Shown: positions 14,110 through 36,492 of the stretch, one piece after another | Layout of the letters: each line of letters starts with the position of its first letter | How positions within the stretch are numbered: position 1 is the stretch's first letter | NCBI RefSeq assembly: GCF_964213995.1 | Contig: NC_135818.1 | Span: 61,690,001 to 61,754,000, forward strand | Direction of reading: 5' to 3' | From: Mustelus asterias | Lineage: Eukaryota | Length of the DNA: 64,000 nt | Position numbers and translations under genes: made by a program | Notes under the pieces: generated by a model | Told to the model about the DNA's origin: nothing | The model's database searches: none | What the model saw: only the letters and a program-made list of their open reading frames with translations

Positions 14110-15570
14110 CGGGAGAGGGCGATTGGTGGGACTGGCTCTGAATTCGGCTCCCGCCCGGGATTGGTTCCTGACATCAACCTCACGCGGGTTGACCAATTGG
14201 CTGCCAGCCACGGTGTAAAGTGTGCTTGGACAGGTCTTGCACTGTCAGCAGAGCTGGGAAGAGTGCGGGCGGCCGGACCAGTGAAGCTGAGGGCGGGGAC
14301 TTTAAATCGAGCTCCCTGAAGGCCTGGAGTCAGTGCTCAGAGCTTCACGGAGCTGCTTTGGAATGTCATCATTACCCAGAGCCCATGCCAGGCTTGACGG
14401 AAATGTCCAGAGCCAGTCTGCCCCCTGTATTTCGGATGAGTGCCTTAGAGTCTTGCTTGAGGCAGTTAATGGGCGTTGTGACATCCTGCTGCCATAGGAC
14501 AGCAAGACAAGGCCACTTCATGTGATGGAGAAGGAGGTGAAAGGCCTGGGCAGTGGCCATGATGTTGTTTACAGAACCTGGATCCAGTGCAGGACCTTCT
14601 GCGCTCTGCCAGGGTGAACACTGATTCCAGCTGGAACCTTGGATAGATGTCCTTGTGGGTGGCAGCCTTTGTTGGTGCTCATGTGTCTGAAATGCAGACG
14701 GCAATGTGGTACATAATCCTGTGCCTTGATAGATCACAACTGGCAGGTATGTCAGGCTGATGCGCTGCAATGTTGTGGTCAATTGAATCTGCTTCTTTGG
14801 GTGGTGGGGAGGCTGGAATCTCCCGGCATGGTGATGGGGGACTAATGAAAGCACTTCTGTCCCTACAGGAGAAGAGGAGTTACAATGTGCATGAGTGAGG
14901 ACAGACAGGAGGTGGGATCTCAAACCTTCTTCTCCTAAGTCAGGCATAAGAGCAGGCACTGGGAATGGTTTGTGGACATGGAGCCAGGTCCACTGGTTAT
15001 GAAGTGGAAGGGATGTCAGATAAGGGTGAGAATCCAGAAGACAGGGAAGAGTTTGGTGTAGGGCATGAGAGATTTCGGATAGTGATTGTGAGACTGACAA
15101 GTGAAATCCAGTTATCCTTGTTGCTCATCCTTTCAGAGTCCTTGCTCAGCCAGATGTCCATTGTGAACAGCAGCCAGACGGCGCGCACTCTGACTTTGTA
15201 ACAATGTGCGATGCTGACATTTGTACTTCCTCCCTCAAATTCCACATCATTATGACCTCAAAAGAACCCCTAGAACCCACTCTTAACCTCCGAGAATGGA
15301 CAGCTGTCGGGACACCCACATCACATCTTCCCTCTACATGCACCAGCGCAAATACAGGCATGGCAGTGGGCATATACGTGTCGGAGTAGATGGCAGTGCA
15401 CAGTGGTGAAGGCACATCACACTCGCCTAAGAAGCCAGCGAAGGCAGAGAGTCCCCAGGGCACCGGCAATCAGAGGATTGCTGGGAACCAGAAGGATGCT
15501 GAGTCCGAGTCAGGCGATCAGCCTTTGGCGTCATCCAGTACGCGGCGGATGCTGGATTCCAATGGAATGT
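14110..15570 (+). mobile_element. Decayed Harbinger/PIF element with Myb/SANT-like remnant
   Basis: ~14420-14600 gives APCISDECLRVLLEAVNGRCDILLP*DS...RTWIQCR, matching the MSANT pattern; many stops. Confidence 0.55.
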
Positions 15571-15696
15571 GCAAAAGACACAAGGTTGTAAATGTAACGG
15601 CTTGGACCCAGCCGAAGGAATTGTTTACAGACTTTTGTTGCCAGTGTTTCCTTGTATGGACATTGGAATGTCAGCTTTAGGCAATAAGGCCTAAAA

Positions 15697-15878
15697 ACCA
15701 TGATGGGGTCTGGAAGGTCCCGAGCCTCTGTACTGGCTCTATTTGATTGACCTAATCGAACGATGCAATCGAGTTTCTGATCAATTCATTGGCCGGCTGC
15801 CAAGGAACGTTTGGGGTCTAAGGATGCTAACACCAAGGGCTTGTGTGCAGAGTGAAGAACTTGGGACCAAACTCACAG
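15697..15878 (+). repeat. Direct repeat copy 1 (~182 bp; partner 19641-19822)
   Basis: 3 substitutions and no indels versus copy 2 by manual alignment. Confidence 0.95.
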
Positions 15879-16244
15879 GAAGAAGAGGCAACATCTGAGA
15901 GAAAGAAGTAGAGAAGGCTGATATCCATGTGGCAAAATCCTGGCCAAGGTTTCATATGCAAGTGGAAATCAACCTTAAGTTAAATAAAGTAACAGACAGT
16001 GAGTATTTGGTTTAAGCATTGCAAGGATTGACTATGCAGCTATGTTTAATTAGCTACAAAAATAAAGGAAACTGTGTTTAAGTATTTAAAGTTGACTTTG
16101 TGTCTTTATTCGCTTGGAGAGGTTAAAACACACAAAAAAGTTTGGACAACAAGGGTCTCTCCAATGGAAAAGACCCATCACAGATTAAACCTACCCCCTC
16201 TCCACAATCTCCCAATCACCAATCTCTTCGTGGGGCGAGGAGGT

Positions 16245-16728
16245 TAAACAATTGCAGACACCACTTTAGGTCTTCCATATCTGCATGGTTTGTACTCAAA
16301 TTTGCTTGGATGTGGATGAATGCTGTTGATTGAATATATTGAACTGTAAAAGTTGCAGTGGCGCATATTCCCCTCAATTTCTTTTACTATTAAAAGCAAA
16401 GTCTGCAAGATGTGCTGCCTCCATTAGAAGGTGTAAGTTGATGTTGCGTTCCTCCTCCATCTTGCCAATCACAACAATATCATCGGCAATGCAGATACAT
16501 CGTGTCTCCATTGATTCAGTCTATACGCCATTGGAACAAGTCCTGGCTGCTTGATAATCCAAAAGGCAATCTTTAAAACCAACACCTTCCAAAAGGTGTC
16601 CAGAATGCTGTCAACTCCAGTGAGTCTTCTGCCAGATGGACAGAACTGAAACTGCTTTTAACATCCAAATCGAAGAAAGATTTCACATCTACCAATCTTG
16701 AATTCAGCTTCTCGAACATTGGAATCTT
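16245..16728 (-). mobile_element. Gypsy pol reverse transcriptase remnant (3' part)
   Basis: KIPMFEKLNSRL..DLDVK..ELTAFWTPFGR..RLPFGLSSSQDLFQ..CIADDIVVIG. Confidence 0.85.
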
Positions 16729-17869
16729 GGCCGCGGTTCTCCCAAAAGTGCTGAATTGGTGGGAGAACTGTTCTAAATCCCGACTGTTCTGTCAGTTCAG
16801 CTTCTCACCTGAATCTCCGCACTCTGTGCACTGAAGAGGTCCCAGTCATGAATCTCATCAAAAACCTGGGGGTGGGGTGGGTAGCTATTGGCGCCAGAGT
16901 TTGACAGTTCTGGAGCTCTGCACATGCGCAGTGGTCCCGATCTGTCAGACTCCCTGTTTGCTGGCCAGCTCAATCGCTGGCCAGCCCGGGACACCCGCAG
17001 TGCTGCCCCTGCAGCACTCCCCCTTCCCCCCCCCACGGCCCGATCATAGTCTCCACAGCAATTCCCGGGCCAGCCCTGACACCCGCCCCCCCCCCCCCCC
17101 CCCCCCCCAGAGCCCCCTGATGTCCAGCCCCCCGCACCCAGCAATAGCAATCCCCCCACCCCCCCTCACCCTGGCAGACCCCCCCTCCCCACTGACCCCC
17201 CACCCCGGGGTCAGATGCCCCCCCCGAGAGGCAGGCCCTTCCCCCCAGCAGACCCCCACCCCCAGCCCCAGCCTGCCCCAATCGTTGCCCTCCCTCCAAC
17301 CCAGACCGATCACCATGCAGATTGGCAGCAGGACCCCCCACTCCCACCGATTGCACCTTGGCACTTCCCAATGCCTGATGGGCAGTGCCAAGGTGCGCTC
17401 TGGGCATGGGCACTTTGCCCCTTGGGCAGTGCCTGGGGCACAGGCTGGCACTGCCAGGAAGCCCATGCCCAGGGGCATCACTCTCCCCCCGCTGCCCGAC
17501 CCCCCCTGGGGGCCCCGATTGACCCCCTTCATTCCGGCGGTGTCTCTCACTAGTTCCCCGAATGTGGGGAGTTACTCTAAACCCCGCCGGAATTAAGTAC
17601 TCTTGGCAGGGTGGGAGATTCGATCGGGACCAGTAGGTTCCCAATAATTACATTTAAAATACAGTTAAAACATATTTTAAAAAGATTTAAATGACTTACC
17701 TGCCTTCCCGCCGGTTTCCAGCGTGGTCTGACCGGCGACTGTTCTCCGGCTCTGGGAGATGTGCATGTGTTTCCGGCGCATGTGCAAATCCCGGAAAAAG
17801 GCCGGCGGCGCACATCTCCCACGCCGACCTGCCAGAAAAGTTGTGGGTCGGAATGGGAGGTTTGCGGCC
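16729..17869. mobile_element. GC-rich non-autonomous TIR element (Harbinger-like), 3-bp TSD CTT
   Basis: Termini 'ggccgcggttctccca' and 'tgggaggtttgcggcc'; CTT on both sides; removing it restores the Gypsy RT sequence. Confidence 0.75.
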
Positions 17870-17904
17870 CTTGTGCGTGCATTTTATATTACAGACCTAT
17901 ATAA

Positions 17905-18216
17905 AATCATAGAAAACCTACAGTGCAGAAGGAGGCCATTCGGTCTTTTGAGTCTGCACCGATAACAATCCCACCTAGGCCCCAGCCCTGTAACCCCATG
18001 TATTTACGCCATAAGGGGCAATTTAGCACAGCCAATGCACCTAACCCGCACATCTTTGGAGTGTGGGAGGAAACTGGAACACCCAGAGGAAACCCACGCA
18101 GACACGGGGAGAACATGCAAACTCCACACAGACAGAGCGACCCAAGCTGGGAATCGAACCCAGGTCTCTGGAGCTGTGAGGCAGCAGTGCTAACCACTGT
18201 ACCACCGTGCCGCCCA
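17905..18216 (-). mobile_element. HE1 SINE
   Basis: Full head, core and tail on - strand. Confidence 0.95.
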
Positions 18217-18220
18217 TGAA

Positions 18221-19090
18221 CATCTTTTCAATGTTCAGTTAAGAAGTCTCAGGTCTCGACATGCCCTAATGATTCTGTCCTTCTTTACCACACACGTAAT
18301 CGAACTGCACCAGTCCGTCTGCTGTTGGACTTTGTGGATAACACCACGCTGCTCCATTTTGTCTTCTTTGACTTTTAATTTCTCTCGGATATCAAAGTTG
18401 CATTTTCTCTGAGTTTTATTCACAGAATTGCATCCTATTCTTATCCCTTTAAAAGTACCAATTGTATCGGCCAAGTATTTAGATTGCAAGTCGAGAACTG
18501 ATTTAGTGGGGCTGTTCCTGATGTCTGGCATTTCCACCGGCACTTTGATGATCCCATGAATAGTAATGAGCTGAAGGTCTTTGGATGCTGGTTGGCCTGT
18601 TATAGCTGAACCTTGTGTACCAACGAGATAAAAGGCCTGTGACAACCCTGCTGATTGATTGTAAATGCATTTCAGTGTTATCACGCGAATGCAATGAATC
18701 ACCAGTCCATTTTCTGCAGTTCAATTGGCTGTGGTCAGTTGTACCATTGCCTTCCAATGTCGGAGGTACATATACTTGAGTATGCTGAGGGAAAGGATAT
18801 TGGCACATGTCCCAGTATCAGTTTTGGACCTCAATTTCCAATCTTCCTCGGACACAGAACATTAAATGGTTGCAAATACATCCAGTGGTGTGATTGTAAT
18901 TATGAACCTGGCAATGATTACAATGGCAAAATGCTTTCTCACTCTACTTTGTAAGAACTTGGTCACCTTCATTTTCCATTCTGTCCACTTGTTCCGTCAC
19001 TTGTTCGCTTCTATGCTTGGCAAGCTCTCTGTTGCTGTTAGTGCGCTGCATAGACTATGTCTAGTTGTGACTTCTTGCCACAAGTTCTGA
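18221..19090 (-). mobile_element. Gypsy protease-RT remnant (5' part of the element at 16245)
   Basis: KTDTGTCANIL (protease DTG motif); KMEQRGVIHKVQQQTDWCSSITCVVKKDRIIRACRDLRLLN. Confidence 0.85.
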
Positions 19091-19640
19091 ACGAGATTTC
19101 TTACGTTGACATGTCTAATGCCCTTTAATGCCACATGCCAGACAATGATCCTTGGCGGCTGTCCTCTGGTCACCGGAGCCAGTGTAGGTCCGGTCTGGGT
19201 GGGAGAGTCCAGCCTCTTGGCTGGGTACTCTTCAGTCATCGCAGTCTCATTCAATGTGGTGGTCACTGGCAGCGGGGTAGAGGAGATGCTGCCATCAGCA
19301 AGGGCACCTGAGCGGATTCCCCAGATGTGAGCTACTGCTGGAGGGCCAACATGAGGGTTGGTTTGAACCTCCCTGCTCACCATTGATGGACAGGCAGCTA
19401 TCAGAGTGACTAGGGGCCTCATCCATCTCTCATGTTGGCAGTGACAAGCTGAGGTCACTGTCATTGTGTGGGCTTGCAGGTCTGAGAGCAAGCTCAGAAA
19501 GCCCTGATGGAGTTCCAGGAACTGCCTCTCTATGAGAGTCACTGCTCTCTCTATGGAGGCGGCTGTGCATTCAGAGTTCTGGGCTCATGCATGGCATCAC
19601 TTGGCCACAGGAAATCCCAGAATACTTAAAAACAAATTTG

Positions 19641-19822
19641 ACCAAGATGGGGTCTGGAAGGTCTCGAGCCTCTGTACTGGCTCTATTTGATTGACCTAAT
19701 CGAACGATGCAATCGAGTTTCTGATCAATTCATTGGCCGGCTGCCAAGGAACGTTTGGGGTCTAAGGATGCTAACACCAAGGGCTTGTGTGCAGTGTGAA
19801 GAACTTGGGACCAAACTCACAG
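19641..19822 (+). repeat. Direct repeat copy 2
   Basis: See 15697-15878. Confidence 0.95.
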
Positions 19823-19930
19823 AATCAGATTTGCCTGATTGAAGATCTTCCAGCATATTAAAAGTTAAATCTCTGCAGGCCACGCCGCCACACCCTCCAT
19901 TGAACACAGATGCTGCCAGACCTGCTGAGT

Positions 19931-20705
19931 ACGACGGAGTACAGGAAAGAGATAGAGAATCTGGTGAACTGCTACAATGACAAAAATCTCTCCCTCAATG
20001 TCAGTAAAACAAAGGAGATAGTCATTTACTTTAGTAAGCGTAGGGGAGGACATGTCCCTGTCTACATCAACGGGGATGAAGTAGAAATGGTTGAGACCTT
20101 CAAGTTCCTAGGTGTCTTGGTCCATCCACGCCGACGCTATAATTAAGAATGCCCACCAATGCCTCTACTTTCTCAGGCGGCTAAGGAATTTTGGCACATC
20201 TGCTACGGCTCTCACCAACTTTTACAGATGTACCATAGAAACCATCCTTTCTATTTGTATCACAGCTTGGTTATGGCTCCTGCTCTGTCCAAGACTGCAA
20301 GAAACTACAAAGAGTCGTGAACGAAGCCCAGTCCATCATGCAAAGCAACCTCCCATCCATTGACTCCGTCTACACTTCCTACTGCCTTGGAAAAGCAGCC
20401 AGCATAATCAAGGACCCCTCGGACATACTCTCTTACACCTTCTTCCGTTGGGAAAAAGATACCATAGTCTGAGGTCACGCACCAACCGACTCAAGAACAG
20501 CTTCTTCCCTGCTGCCATCAGACTTTTGAATGGACTTACCTTATATTAAGTTATCTTTCTCTACACCCTAGCTATGACTGTAACATTACATTCTGCACCC
20601 TCTCCATTCCTTCTCTATGTACGGTATGCTTCATCTGTTCAACACACAAGAAACAATACTTTTCACTGCAAACTAATACATGTGACAATAATAAGTCAAA
20701 TCAAA
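19931..20705 (+). mobile_element. Rex1/Babar-type LINE 3' fragment inserted into a PLE 3' end
   Basis: EYRKEIENLVN..NLSLNVSKTKEIVIYF..; splits 'cagacctgctgagta|tctccagca'. Confidence 0.9.
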
Positions 20706-22190: not shown

Positions 22191-22443
22191 TTATAAAATA
22201 ATGTTTCCTATCTGATTTTCAAACTGGACAATTGCTGGGCTGACAAGATGGCTCCAGTTGGTCAACTGCTGGCTTCTGGATGTTACTGAGCAGTTCAACA
22301 GAACTCAAACACCCTGGAATATAACACTCCTTGCATTGAACAAACATTCCAGCCATTCCAACACAATGGATTCGCAGAGATGTTGGACCCAGCCAGCTAT
22401 GGACAAAGGCAACTGTTTGCAACTCCTGGTCTCCAATATGTTT

Positions 22444-22579
22444 CTAAGTGTTACCTGTACCTAAGTGTTACCTGTTCCTAAGTGTTACCTGTACCTAAGC
22501 GTTACCTGTTCCTAAGTGCTACCTGTACCTAAATGTTACCTGTTCCTAACTGTTACCTGTACCTAAGTGTTACCTGTTC
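22444..22579. repeat. Minisatellite, 8 x 17 bp with a 34-bp higher-order period
   Basis: Unit CTAAGTGTTACCTGT(A/T)C, with A and T strictly alternating. Confidence 0.95.
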
Positions 22580-22971
22580 AAACACACAATGGCTTTCAAC
22601 CAGGAGCCTTGTTTAACAACCAGAAACCAGTGTCACATGACCGAGACCTGAGCTGTCTGACTTCCGTTAAATAACCAGCTGTTGGAAGTTACACAGGCAG
22701 CCATTGCTTTAACCTCCAAAGAGAAACAGTAGCTCCAGGCAAGCAGTCTGTGCTGTCTACCATCAAGCAGGTGATAGCAGAGAGAACTCTGGCCCTCATC
22801 AAAACTGAAATACCGGAACAATGGAACTTGGGCCTTCAAGTCTAACTCAACTCAATGTGGCTTCTCGCTGGTGGAAGTCTTGCTTCTGAGAAGATGGATC
22901 ACTCTGCGACAGTCACCCTCCCCTCTGAAGAAACATTCCATTAGACTCTTGATTCTGGACTCTGGACACTT

Positions 22972-23118: not shown

Positions 23119-24157
23119 ATAAAACCCTAACCTGTATGTTGTTGTGGTCTGGCCCTCAACGTCCTTCCTATCCCTTGTCCCTCATTGTATTGGATGAGTG
23201 CAAAGGGCTTTCATTGCAAAAACTCTCTCTGTGGTTTTGTGTGTGTGAAAAAAAACCAACCCCTCTTATTTTGTTGTTGAGGATTAACCAGCCAATGCAC
23301 GGTGAGTACTCAAATCTCCTGAGCTTTTATTACTTGCTAGCAAGGAGAACAGACACATTGAATTTCACTATGATGTTCTGTTGATTCATACAGATACTTA
23401 ACAGTTATACTTAATTACAGCAAATGAGAAACGAGCAAATTTCGAATCTTCCATTTACATACATAGTCCTCCAATCATAGCATAGCTTTTTGCTCTTTCT
23501 TATCCAATAAAAAAAACATCTCCTTCATTACCATAATATGTCAACATATCTTGTTTTTGGTATTTGTCATGGTAACTTGTCTTTGTTTCATCCTGTGGTC
23601 AAGACCAGGAATGCAGTGTTCATGAAACGGACACAAGGTTAGATTAGTCTCTTTCCTGAATGTGCAACTGCTGACTTCAATGAGGCCTTGTTTCCATATT
23701 TGCTGACAGAGTTGCCTGCCCTTGTTGTTGTAACTTATTTCCACACCAGCATCTGCAGTTTTTAACTGTTTTTAACTATAGTTTCACATGACCCAGCAAC
23801 CCCCTGGTGCTTTATTTGAAGAGAGCACCCTTAATCTTGCAGAACAAAGTGAATTAAATATTTGGCCATAGTTGGAATTACAACTTAATTTCCACATTAT
23901 CTTAGCTCGGGTTTGCTGTGCAGGTTACTCTTAGAGGATTGGAATGGGGTGGGGAAAATACATCAACACTTGTAAAGGGGGAAATCAAACATTAAAACAA
24001 AATACTTTTCTGTTTATGGAGATCGGGACTATTTAAATTACTTCCCCCCCCGCCTGTCCATAACAAGGATGAGAAAACATTCATGTCATAATGTATATAC
24101 AGTAAGAAGTCTCACAACACCAGGTTAAAGTCCAACAGGTTTATTTGGTAGCAAATA

Positions 24158-24194
24158 CCATAAGCTTTCGGAGCAATGCTCCTTCGTCAGATGG
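24158..24194 (-). ncRNA. Minimal type I hammerhead ribozyme motif
   Basis: CCAT-CTGACGA-A-GGAGC-ATT-GCTCC-GAAA-GCTT-ATGG. Confidence 0.75.
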
Positions 24195-24861
24195 AGTGGT
24201 CTCTGTTCTCAAACAGGGCACAGACACAGAAATCAAATTACAGAATACTGATTAGAATGCAAATCTCTACAGCCAGCCAGGTCTTAAATGCACAGACAAT
24301 GTGGGTGGAGGGAGCATTCAACACAGGTTAAAGAGATGTGTATTGTCTCCAGACAGTACAGCTTGTGAAATTGTGCAAGTCCAGGAGTCAAGCTGTGGGG
24401 GTTACTGATAATGTGACATAAATCCAACATCCCGGTTTAGACCGTCCTCATGTGTGCGAAACTTGGCTATCAGTTTCTGCTCAGTGACTCTGTGCTGTCG
24501 TGTGTCGTGAAGGCCGCCTTGGAGAGCGTTCTCCAAGGCGGCCTTCACGACACACGACAGCGCAGAGCCGCTGAGCAGAAACTGATAAGCCAAGTTTCGC
24601 ACACATGAGGACGGTCTAAACCGGGATGTTGGATTTATGTCACATTATCAGTAACCCCCACAGCTTGACTCCTGGACTTGCACAATTTCACAAGCTGTAC
24701 TGTCTGGAGACAATACACATCTCTTTAACCTGTGTTGAATGCTCCCTCCACCCACATTGTCTGTGCATTTAAGACCTGGCTGGCTGTAGAGATTTGCATT
24801 CTAATCAGTATTCTGTAATTTGATTTCTGTGTCTGTGCCCTGTTTGAGAACAGAGACCACT

Positions 24862-24898
24862 CCATCTGACGAAGGAGCATTACTCCGAAAGCTTATGG
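24862..24898 (+). ncRNA. Minimal type I hammerhead ribozyme motif
   Basis: CCAT-CTGACGA-A-GGAG-CATTA-CTCC-GAAA-GCTT-ATGG. Confidence 0.75.
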
Positions 24899-25112
24899 TA
24901 TTTGCTACCAAATAAACCTGTTGGACTTTAACCTGGTGTTGTGAGACTTCTTACTGTGCTTACCCCAGTCCAACGCTGGCATCTCCACATCATTATGTAT
25001 ATAACCAGAGACTTAAGGACCTCAATAGAGGAAAGGAGGGGAACCCTGCAAGATACGCACTCATCCTGTTTCACACTTCTTCCCCCAGCCCTGCCTATAA
25101 ACATCCCTATAA

Positions 25113-33324: not shown

Positions 33325-34092
33325 GTGGCGGATGCTGGAATCTAAAACAAGAACAGAGGGTGCTGGAAAATCTCATCTGGTCCGGCAGCATCTGTGAGGA
33401 GAGAAAGCAGAATTAACATTTTGAGTCCTCTTGGCTTTTCATCACAACTGAAGGGAGGGAGAGTGTGTCAGATATTAATCATAGAATCATAGAATCCCTA
33501 TAGTGCAGAAGGAGGCCATTGGGCTCATCAAGTCTGCACCGACAACAATCCCTCCCAGCCCCTATCCCCGTATGTTTACCCCACTAATCCCCCTGGCACT
33601 AGGGTCAATTTAGCATGGCCAATCAACCTAACCCACACATCTTTGGAGTGTGGGAGGAAACCGGAGCACCCGGAGGAAACCCACGCAGACACAGGGAGAA
33701 TGTGCAAACTCTGCAAAAACAGTGACCCAAGCCTGGAATCGAACCCATGTCCCTGGCGTTGTGAGGCAGCAGTGCTAACCGCTGTGCCACTGTGACACCC
33801 CATGTTTAACTGTGAGAGATTGCAACAAGAAGTAGCAACTTTAAGAACAAAAGGCCTGGTATGTGAGGGGGAGGGGGAGGTTTGCATTGAAACAATACAT
33901 GGATGAGATATTTAAGAAAAGGGGTTTACGGTGGAGGAAAATGGTCACAATCTGAAGCTGCCGAACCCAACATTGAGTCCCAAGGGCTGCAACGTGCTCA
34001 ACTGGAAGGTGAGATGCTGCTCCTTCAGTCAGGCTTCACTGGAGCATTAGTGCAGGCCAAGAATGGACACGTGGGGATGAGAACAAGACAAT
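33325..34092 (-). mobile_element. PLE 3' fragment (family of 5206-6050) split by an HE1 SINE
   Basis: Homologous to 5660-6050; degenerate hammerhead and 'cacagatgctgccggacc' on - strand. Confidence 0.75.
33479..33795 (-). mobile_element. HE1 SINE
   Basis: Full length, (ATAGAATC)n tail. Confidence 0.93.
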
Positions 34093-35094: not shown

Positions 35095-36492
35095 GGTGAG
35101 AGATAAAAATAATTGCCCTTGACATCAAGGCAGCATTTGACCAAGTATGGCATCAAGGAGGCTTAGCAAAACTGGAGGCAGTGGGAATCAGGGGGAAAAT
35201 TCACCCCTCTTTTGAGTCATACCTGGGACAAAGGAAGATGGTTGTGAAGGTTGATCAATCATCTCACTTCCAGACATCACTGCAGGAGCTCCTCAGGGTA
35301 GTGTCCAAGGCCCAATCATCTTTATCAATCACCTTCTGCCCATCATAAGGTGGGGATGTTATGTTTGCTAAAGACTACATAATGTTCAGCACCATCCGTG
35401 ACTCCGCAGATATTGAAGAAGTCCATGCCCAAATGCAGCAAGTTCTGGACAGTATCTGGGCTTGGGCTGACAAATGGCAAGTAACATTCGCTCCGCACAA
35501 GTGCCAGTCAATGACCATCTCCAACAGGAGAGAATCTAACCATTGCCGCTTGACATTCAATGGCATTACCATCGCTGAATTCCCCACTATCAACATCCTG
35601 GGGGTTACCATTGACCAGAAACTGAACTGGACCAGCCATGCAAATATTGGGGCTAAAGGAGCAGGCCAGAGGCAGGAATCCTGTGGCGAGTAACTCATCT
35701 CCTGATCTCCAAAGCCTAACCGCCATTTACAAGGCACAAGTCAAGAGTGTGATGGAATAATCTCCAATTGCCTGGATGAGTGCAGCTCCAACAACACTCA
35801 TGAAGGTTGAAACTATTCAGGACAAAGCAACCTACTTGATTGATACCCTTTCCACAAATCACACCCTCCAGCACCAATGCACAGTGGCAGCAGTGTGTAC
35901 CATCTAAAAGATGGTACCCTTGGGACTCAATGTTGGGTTCGGCAGCTTCAGATTGTGACCTTTTTCCTCCGCCGTAAACCCCTTTTCTTAAATATCTCAT
36001 CCATGTATTGTTTCAATGCAAACCTCCCCCTCCCCCCTCACACACCAGGCCTTTCGTTCTTAAAGTTGCTACTTCTTGTTGCAACATTGTACACGCAGGA
36101 ACTCACCAAAACTACTTGGGGAGCACCTTTCAAACACGAGGCCGCTACCATCTGGAAGGACAAGAGCAGCAGATACCTGGGAACACCAGCACCTGGAAGT
36201 CCCCCACAAGTCATTCACCATTCTGACTTGGAAATATATCACCGTTCCTTCACTGTCGCTGGGTCAAAATCCTGGAAATCACTCCATGACAGCACTGTGG
36301 GTGCTGTCAGACCTTTGAATGGACCTACCTTGCATTAAGTTAATCTTTCTCTACAGCCTAGCACCTATACCTCAGGGACGGCAGCAGTTCAAGAAGGAAG
36401 CTCACCACCAACTTCTCAATGGCAACTAGGGATGGGCAATAAATGCTGACCTAGCCAGTGAAGCCCACATCCCATAAATTAATTTAAAAAAA
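35095..36492 (+). mobile_element. CR1/L2-like LINE 3' part (partner of SINE family B) carrying two foreign inserts
   Basis: ALDIKAAFDQVWHQG..PQGSV..WADKWQVTFAPHKCQSM..NILGVTIDQKLNW; tail 'tagggatgggcaataaatgctg'. Confidence 0.88.

What the first reader, a model, noticed from the sequence alone, without database searches (positions are those of the whole stretch)
15697..19822. Unexplained ~182-bp, ~98% identical direct repeat bracketing 3.8 kb of ancient debris
Seen: 15697-15878 and 19641-19822 differ at 3 positions with no indels, and similarity stops sharply at both ends. The unit keeps several CpGs and matches no other repeat in the window. The enclosed DNA (decayed Gypsy protease-RT, TIR element, HE1) is far older than the repeat identity implies, and I see no TSD, PBS or PPT. 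Inference: it could be a recent local templated copy, gene conversion between old LTRs, a young unrecognised short element, or terminal repeats of a composite or non-autonomous unit that could delete or circularise the interval.
Basis: seen in the sequence. Interest (0 to 1): 0.7.

Follow-up and report, generated by a model that had tools for sequence, protein, structure and literature searches.

The report
Flipped DNA with locally copied patch
The two near-identical 182-base copies mark a 4-kb stretch of shark DNA that was flipped and a 177-base piece copied next to the break, likely in one repair or replication accident of a kind already known from human genomes.

Summary
The repeat is real (3 mismatches, no indels) and not a misassembly: contigs of a matching run span three of the four junctions with no difference. 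It is not a unit of its own. Copy 1 is the middle of an old ~713-bp solo LTR (TG..CA, 4-bp TSD; other copies 72-87% alike). Copy 2 is a 177-bp copy of it inserted into the 5' part of the same LTR. The inversion split the LTR, whose AGGG target duplication survives at 16152 and 19893, and an older host repeat; two related organisms lack the junction. Before the flip, the copy would have been an inverted duplicate about 192 bp from its source. Best reading: one template-switching or break-repair event made the inversion, two small deletions and the insertion (0.55); a fold-back copy that later provoked the inversion is the main rival (0.3). Known kinds: repair-mediated duplication (Pace 2009) and CNV-flanked inversion. 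Such local pairs occur at about 5-15 per Mb here, and this scan has noted similar local copies elsewhere in this genome. Ordinary, but unusually well resolved.

The parts
14363..15571 (+). Left arm of an old host repeat (family not identified), cut at the left inversion breakpoint
   Evidence: Paralogue L043 aligns over 14363-15569; this arm adjoins the reverse of 19400-19599 in 17 of 19 paralogous loci
15572..19599 (.). Inverted segment, 4,028 bp
   Evidence: Split host repeat, split LTR, matching TSD, junction absent in two related organisms
15572..16151 (+). 3' part of an old solo LTR, ending in CA
   Evidence: Paralogues align over 15572-16156 at 74-83%; termini
15702..15878 (+). Donor of the copy (copy 1; 15697-15878 with the shared junction letters), internal to the LTR
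   Evidence: 37 and 38 paralogue hits cross its left and right edges
16152..16155 (+). LTR target-site duplication AGGG, 3' side
16156..19122 (.). Passenger debris inside the inversion (old retroelement fragments, a GC-rich element, a SINE); no role shown
19123..19599 (-). Right arm of the host repeat, reversed by the inversion; about 60 bp lost at the join
   Evidence: gap 19-78 bp in 15 of 19 loci
19600..19645 (-). 46-bp LTR piece between the right inversion breakpoint and the insertion; about 16 bp of LTR lost at the breakpoint
   Evidence: Adjoins the start of 15572-15701 on the opposite strand in 24 of 37 loci, with a 16-bp gap in 19
19646..19822 (+). Templated insertion (copy 2), 177 bp, 2 differences from the donor
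   Evidence: Empty site in 36 of 38 paralogues; no paralogue hit crosses either edge; junctions spanned by contigs
19823..19892 (-). 5' end of the same solo LTR, beginning TG
19893..19896 (-). LTR target-site duplication AGGG, 5' side

Best explanation
A 4,028-bp segment (15572-19599) is inverted with small losses at both ends, and a 177-bp copy of LTR sequence sits 46 bp outside its right breakpoint; all four junctions likely formed in one germline template-switching or break-repair event. Shown: the inversion, the empty site, the donor, and that the junctions 19599/19600 and 19645/19646 lie on one contig. Inferred path, reading the + strand: synthesis leaves the host repeat at 15571, copies 4 kb backwards on the other strand, returns to copy 46 bp, switches about 190 bp back at a 4-nt microhomology (ACCA) to copy 177 bp, and resumes at 19823 with about 1 bp lost. 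The direct orientation and 3.8-kb spacing are by-products of the flip. The repeat most likely has no function; it could in principle allow deletion of the interval by single-strand annealing, which was not tested.
For: Host repeat arms adjoin on opposite strands in 17 of 19 loci. LTR pieces adjoin on opposite strands in 24 of 37 loci, most others with larger gaps. TSD AGGG/AGGG; the family has 4/4 TSD matches in 8 and 3/4 in 6 of 23 loci. Empty site in 36 of 38. Orthologous contigs of organism A (98% over 19356-19597) and organism C (18240-19602) stop matching at the breakpoint and run on for about 2,000 and 800 letters. The insertion is 46 bp from one breakpoint and its donor 130 bp from the other; with about 5-15 local pairs per Mb, chance placement is below 1% by a rough estimate of mine. 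Copy divergence 1.1% is below the 3.2% to organism A, so both changes fit the same branch. Templated insertions accompany inversions in human germline cases (PMC7702065, passages), and tightly clustered local jumps are read as single events (PMC7025897, passages).
Against: Nothing here dates the inversion against the insertion. An insertion older than the split from organism A is not excluded (P = 0.079), and its presence in relatives could not be read. Microhomology is clear only at one junction (4 nt); at the other three it is 0-3 nt and uncertain because paralogues are 20-30% diverged. Cut-and-join repair of two breaks explains the inversion and deletions equally well. Direct local copies also arise without a flip: the pair 104 kb upstream has an empty site in 18 hits and no real inversion signal. 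The left junction 15571/15572 was not checked against reads.
Confidence: 0.55

Rival explanations
1. Two linked steps: a short-range template switch first made an inverted 177-bp duplicate about 192 bp from its source; this hairpin-prone repeat later broke in its loop, and repair inverted 4 kb, turning it into a direct repeat.
For: Undoing the flip on paper gives arms of 177 bp and a 192-bp spacer, the geometry of the inverted-repeat type 1-4-3-2/3-2-1-4 of PMC5453318 (passages). The right breakpoint lies inside that spacer. Short inverted local pairs exist nearby (spacers 255 and 520 bp).
Against: A 192-bp spacer makes a weak cruciform (my knowledge). The break is 46 and 130 bp from the arms, at neither a tip nor a base. 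It needs two rare events in one lineage, and no intermediate allele was seen.
Confidence: 0.3
2. Independent events: an ordinary repair-mediated duplication and an ordinary inversion that happen to coincide, in either order.
For: Local pairs are common (15 in 1.264 Mb within 5 kb), in both orientations, and 3.8 kb is inside the known range (PMC2671141).
Against: Donor and acceptor both hug the breakpoints (130 and 46 bp). None of the other 11 pairs tested showed a real inversion signal, though the search set was richer in paralogues for the focal pair.
Confidence: 0.1
3. The copies are terminal repeats of a composite or non-autonomous element, a young short element, or converted remains of two LTRs.
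For: Young elements with ~300-bp direct repeats about 4.1 kb apart do exist in this genome, so the geometry is suggestive.
Against: Copy 1 is internal to an old LTR; copy 2 interrupts the same LTR; no TSD brackets the pair; no other copy above 87% among 40 scored.
Confidence: 0.03
4. Assembly artefact.
For: The copies are nearly identical and the interval holds a long C run.
Against: Contigs of run X16 span 19361-19694 and 19722-19859 with 0 differences, and the copies differ at 2 internal sites. That run may be the assembled sample, so it shows presence in reads, not in other individuals.
Confidence: 0.02

Closest known systems
Repair-mediated duplication, proximal class (Pace, Sen, Batzer, Feschotte 2009, PMC2671141; parts 1-3 of 8 and passages read)
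   Same: Insertion of 50 bp or more into a transposable element, donor within 5 kb, length near their mean of 162 bp, 2-9 nt microhomology with a small loss, no polyA/T tail.
   Different: Here the donor is a piece of the same old element, which their filters could have removed; an inversion breakpoint lies 46 bp away; no shark was in their species table.
CNV-flanked complex inversions, delINVdel type (Collins 2017, PMC5338099) and inversions with templated insertions (PMC7702065); passages read
   Same: Inversion with deletions at both breakpoints and a templated insert; ascribed to MMBIR/FoSTeS or to joint repair of several breaks.
   Different: Far smaller (4 kb; losses of about 16 and 60 bp); the insert lies 46 bp outside the breakpoint; a fossil in a shark lineage, not a patient allele.
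Four-point short template switch (Loytynoja and Goldman 2017, PMC5453318) and local n-jumps (PCAWG, PMC7025897); passages read
   Same: Before the flip the insert is an inverted copy from within 400 bp; four clustered junctions with mixed orientation.
   Different: The four-point model covers one switch and return and excludes multiple rounds; local n-jumps are somatic.

Membership tests
Repair-mediated duplication (Pace 2009) | Insert of 50 bp or more interrupts a transposable element whose two parts are otherwise contiguous | tested here: met
   177 bp; flanks within 1-5 bp of each other in 36 of 38 loci
Repair-mediated duplication (Pace 2009) | Donor within 5 kb and more than 50 bp away | tested here: met
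   3,762 bp now, about 192 bp before the inversion
Repair-mediated duplication (Pace 2009) | Microhomology, small deletion or filler at the breakpoints; no polyA/T tail | tested here: met
   4-nt microhomology at the left junction, about 1 bp lost, no tail
Repair-mediated duplication (Pace 2009) | Insert found at only one other place and not itself a nested element | tested here: inconclusive
   One donor at 98-99%; other copies 72-87%; only 40 of 534 candidates scored
Repair-mediated duplication (Pace 2009) | Empty orthologous site in a relative | tested here: inconclusive
   Skips across 19644-19823 occur in contigs of organisms A and C but cannot be told from paralogues
Complex inversion (delINVdel with templated insertion) | Segment reversed relative to the ancestral order | tested here: met
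   Two split repeats, matching TSD, junction absent in two relatives
Complex inversion (delINVdel with templated insertion) | Losses at both breakpoints | tested here: met
   About 16 bp and about 60 bp, inferred from paralogues, not from an orthologue
FoSTeS/MMBIR single event | Microhomology at each switch | tested here: inconclusive
   Clear at 1 of 4 junctions
FoSTeS/MMBIR single event | All junctions arose together | not testable with these tools
   Needs alleles or orthologues with intermediate states
Solo LTR (the ~713-bp host of both copies) | TG...CA ends and a short TSD | tested here: met
   Window AGGG/AGGG; 4/4 in 8 and 3/4 in 6 of 23 loci
Solo LTR (the ~713-bp host of both copies) | Link to an internal region that names the family | tested here: inconclusive
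   An exact pattern for LTR end plus primer-site start found 0 matches
LTR pair or composite element bounded by the 182-bp copies | Shared element ends, TSD outside the pair, other pairs in the genome | tested here: not met

The most novel reading that the evidence does not exclude
A germline cascade caught in the fossil record: a repair-made inverted duplicate formed a hairpin, broke in its loop and drove a 4-kb inversion that defused it by turning it into a direct repeat. An intermediate allele (insertion without inversion) should survive in a close relative, and slowly evolving shark genomes, with several such local copies per Mb, would let the link between local duplication and inversion be counted.
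Probability: 0.3. Interest if true: 0.5.

Novelty: new member of a known kind. Interest (0 to 1): 0.27.

Why it matters
It removes the idea of a new mobile unit and shows how a kilobase-spaced direct repeat can be a by-product of an inversion. All four junctions can be read from old repeats, so the locus is a clean test of one-step against two-step origins of complex inversions once a relative's locus is assembled. No gene effect was shown.

Tried and rejected
Young short element or composite element: rejected. Gene conversion between two LTRs: only one LTR is present. Naming the LTR family by an LTR-end-plus-primer-site pattern: 0 matches. Pfam and PDB on two frames inside the interval: 0 hits. 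Rfam over 13000-37000: 5 matches, all below gathering score, reflecting hairpins. Looking for the same flip around 11 other local pairs: the signals at 2 pairs examined in detail came from palindromic or nested repeats; those at 4 others were not examined in detail; 5 had none. The left junction and the relatives' state at the insertion site remain unread from sequencing runs. Paper search for shark plus repair-mediated duplication, templated insertion, inversion (3 of 4 terms) listed 3 papers, none on sharks by title; a search for templated micro-insertion distances listed 0. Earlier-finding look-ups near this place and by words returned nothing. No supplements were opened; the tables of PMC2671141 might give donor orientations.

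Full report
Observation. The two stretches align without gaps and with 3 mismatches, and similarity stops at both ends. The first mismatch (15701/19645) sits in the junction; the other two are internal.

What the unit is. A search of the own genome gave 534 candidates, 40 scored; besides the two window copies all were 80-87% alike. In those loci homology continues past both ends of copy 1 but past neither end of copy 2 (37 and 38 crossing hits against 0 and 0). Copy 1 is therefore internal to an old repeat. That repeat has TG..CA ends and 4-bp target duplications (4/4 in 8 and 3/4 in 6 of 23 loci with both ends found by motif), so it is a solo LTR of about 713 bp. Its family could not be named.

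Copy 2 is an insertion. Its flanks, 19600-19645 and 19823-19892, lie within 1-5 bp of each other in 36 of the 38 loci that hold both (42 loci examined). The insert is thus about 177 bp (19646-19822), with 2 differences from 15702-15878. Acceptor and donor share ACCA before the left junction, and about 1 bp is lost. There is no tail and no TSD of the unit.

The interval is inverted. The flanks of copy 2 belong to the same LTR as copy 1, on the other strand: 19600-19645 adjoins the start of 15572-15701 in 24 of 37 loci, with a 16-bp gap in 19, and the other 13 have larger gaps. The LTR's target duplication is intact across the flip, AGGG at 16152-16155 and on the reverse strand at 19893-19896. 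An older host repeat is cut at the same two places: its part up to 15571 adjoins the reverse of its part up to 19599 in 17 of 19 loci, within 19-78 bp in 15. So 15572-19599 (4,028 bp) is inverted with about 60 and 16 bp lost. Before the flip the insert would have been an inverted copy about 192 bp from its source.

Sequencing runs. Of 19 runs listed, 4 were laid on 18240-19935; all are contigs. Run X16 spans 19361-19694 and 19722-19859 with 0 differences, so three junctions are real; it may be the assembled sample. Organism A (36 differences in 1,137 letters) and organism C (102 in 1,343) have orthologous contigs that stop matching at 19597 and 19602 and run on, so the inversion is younger than both splits. 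Whether they carry the insert could not be read, and the left junction was not checked against reads. Copy divergence is 1.1% (95% interval 0.14-4.1%); an origin before the split from A is not excluded (P = 0.079), before the split from C it is (P = 0.0001). With the per-generation rate of another shark species (7e-10; PMC10587355, passages) this would be millions of generations, a crude figure because copying errors at formation would inflate it.

How common. In 1.264 Mb (464 kb around the window and four arbitrary 200-kb stretches), pairs of 60 bp or more, 94% or more alike, outside tandem arrays and with no similar third copy in the pool numbered 15 at spacers of 50-5,000 bp and 11 at 5-200 kb. 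Dropping the focal pair, one 7.6-kb duplication and two pairs that look like young LTR pairs leaves 11: 7 in 464 kb and 4 in 800 kb, about 15 and 5 per Mb. An empty site was seen for 5 of the 12 pairs tested, the focal one included. Only the focal pair gave a real inversion signal, with the caveat that the search set held more paralogues for it.

Mechanism. Shown: inversion, losses (from paralogues), donor, empty site, and two junctions on one contig. Inferred: coupling, because the insert is 46 bp from one breakpoint and its donor 130 bp from the other. I put one event with four switches at 0.55, a fold-back copy that provoked the inversion at 0.3, independence at 0.1, and a mobile unit or artefact at 0.05 together. 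Microhomology is clear at one junction only, so replication switching cannot be told from end joining with templated fill-in.

Comparison. The insert meets the tested features of proximal repair-mediated duplications (PMC2671141; parts 1-3 of 8 and passages; human density 0.62 per Mb of element DNA, not comparable like for like with my count); uniqueness and the orthologous empty site stay inconclusive. The whole fits CNV-flanked inversions and inversions with templated insertions (PMC5338099, PMC7702065; passages) and local n-jumps (PMC7025897; passages); the pre-flip geometry fits the four-point switch model (PMC5453318; passages). That the genome is a shark's is inferred from run labels, earlier notes and recalled repeat types.

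Verdict. A real, well-resolved rearrangement scar of a known kind, not a new element. Interest 0.27.

Noticed in passing
window 33820-33986 and 35917-36084: A second local templated copy in the window: 168 bp, 97%, inverted, 1.9 kb from its source, inserted into a common repeat (empty site in 13 hits; CR1-like by recall).
   Followed up: partly
window 24099-24957: Near-perfect palindrome: outer 370-bp arms 100% complementary, inner arms about 90%, 4-nt loop; Penelope-like ends by recall. The contrast between perfect outer and imperfect inner arms is unexplained.
   Followed up: partly
G000:C18 about 104 kb upstream of the window (window-relative -104009 to -103183) and window-relative 81973-85089, -29851 to -28544: Further local copies with empty sites: a 129-bp direct copy 0.6 kb from its source, and inverted copies of 446 and 394 bp.
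   Followed up: partly
G000:C18 window-relative 89218-93946 and 94772-99494; also the C1, C6, C11 and C23 samples: A young family with ~300-bp direct repeats about 4.1 kb apart (96-99% alike), probably LTR retrotransposons; about 8 pairs in 1.264 Mb; unrelated to the 182-bp unit.
   Followed up: no
1.264-Mb sample: Local near-identical pairs at about 5-15 per Mb, some 50 times denser per kb of spacing within 5 kb than at 5-200 kb; possibly higher than the human figure, but the methods differ.
   Followed up: partly
G000:C11:30061000-30200000: A 7.6-kb tandem duplication at 99.4% and a multi-copy segmental array at 95-98%.
   Followed up: no
window 22405-22608: 17-bp tandem repeat, about 9 overlapping registers.
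   Followed up: no
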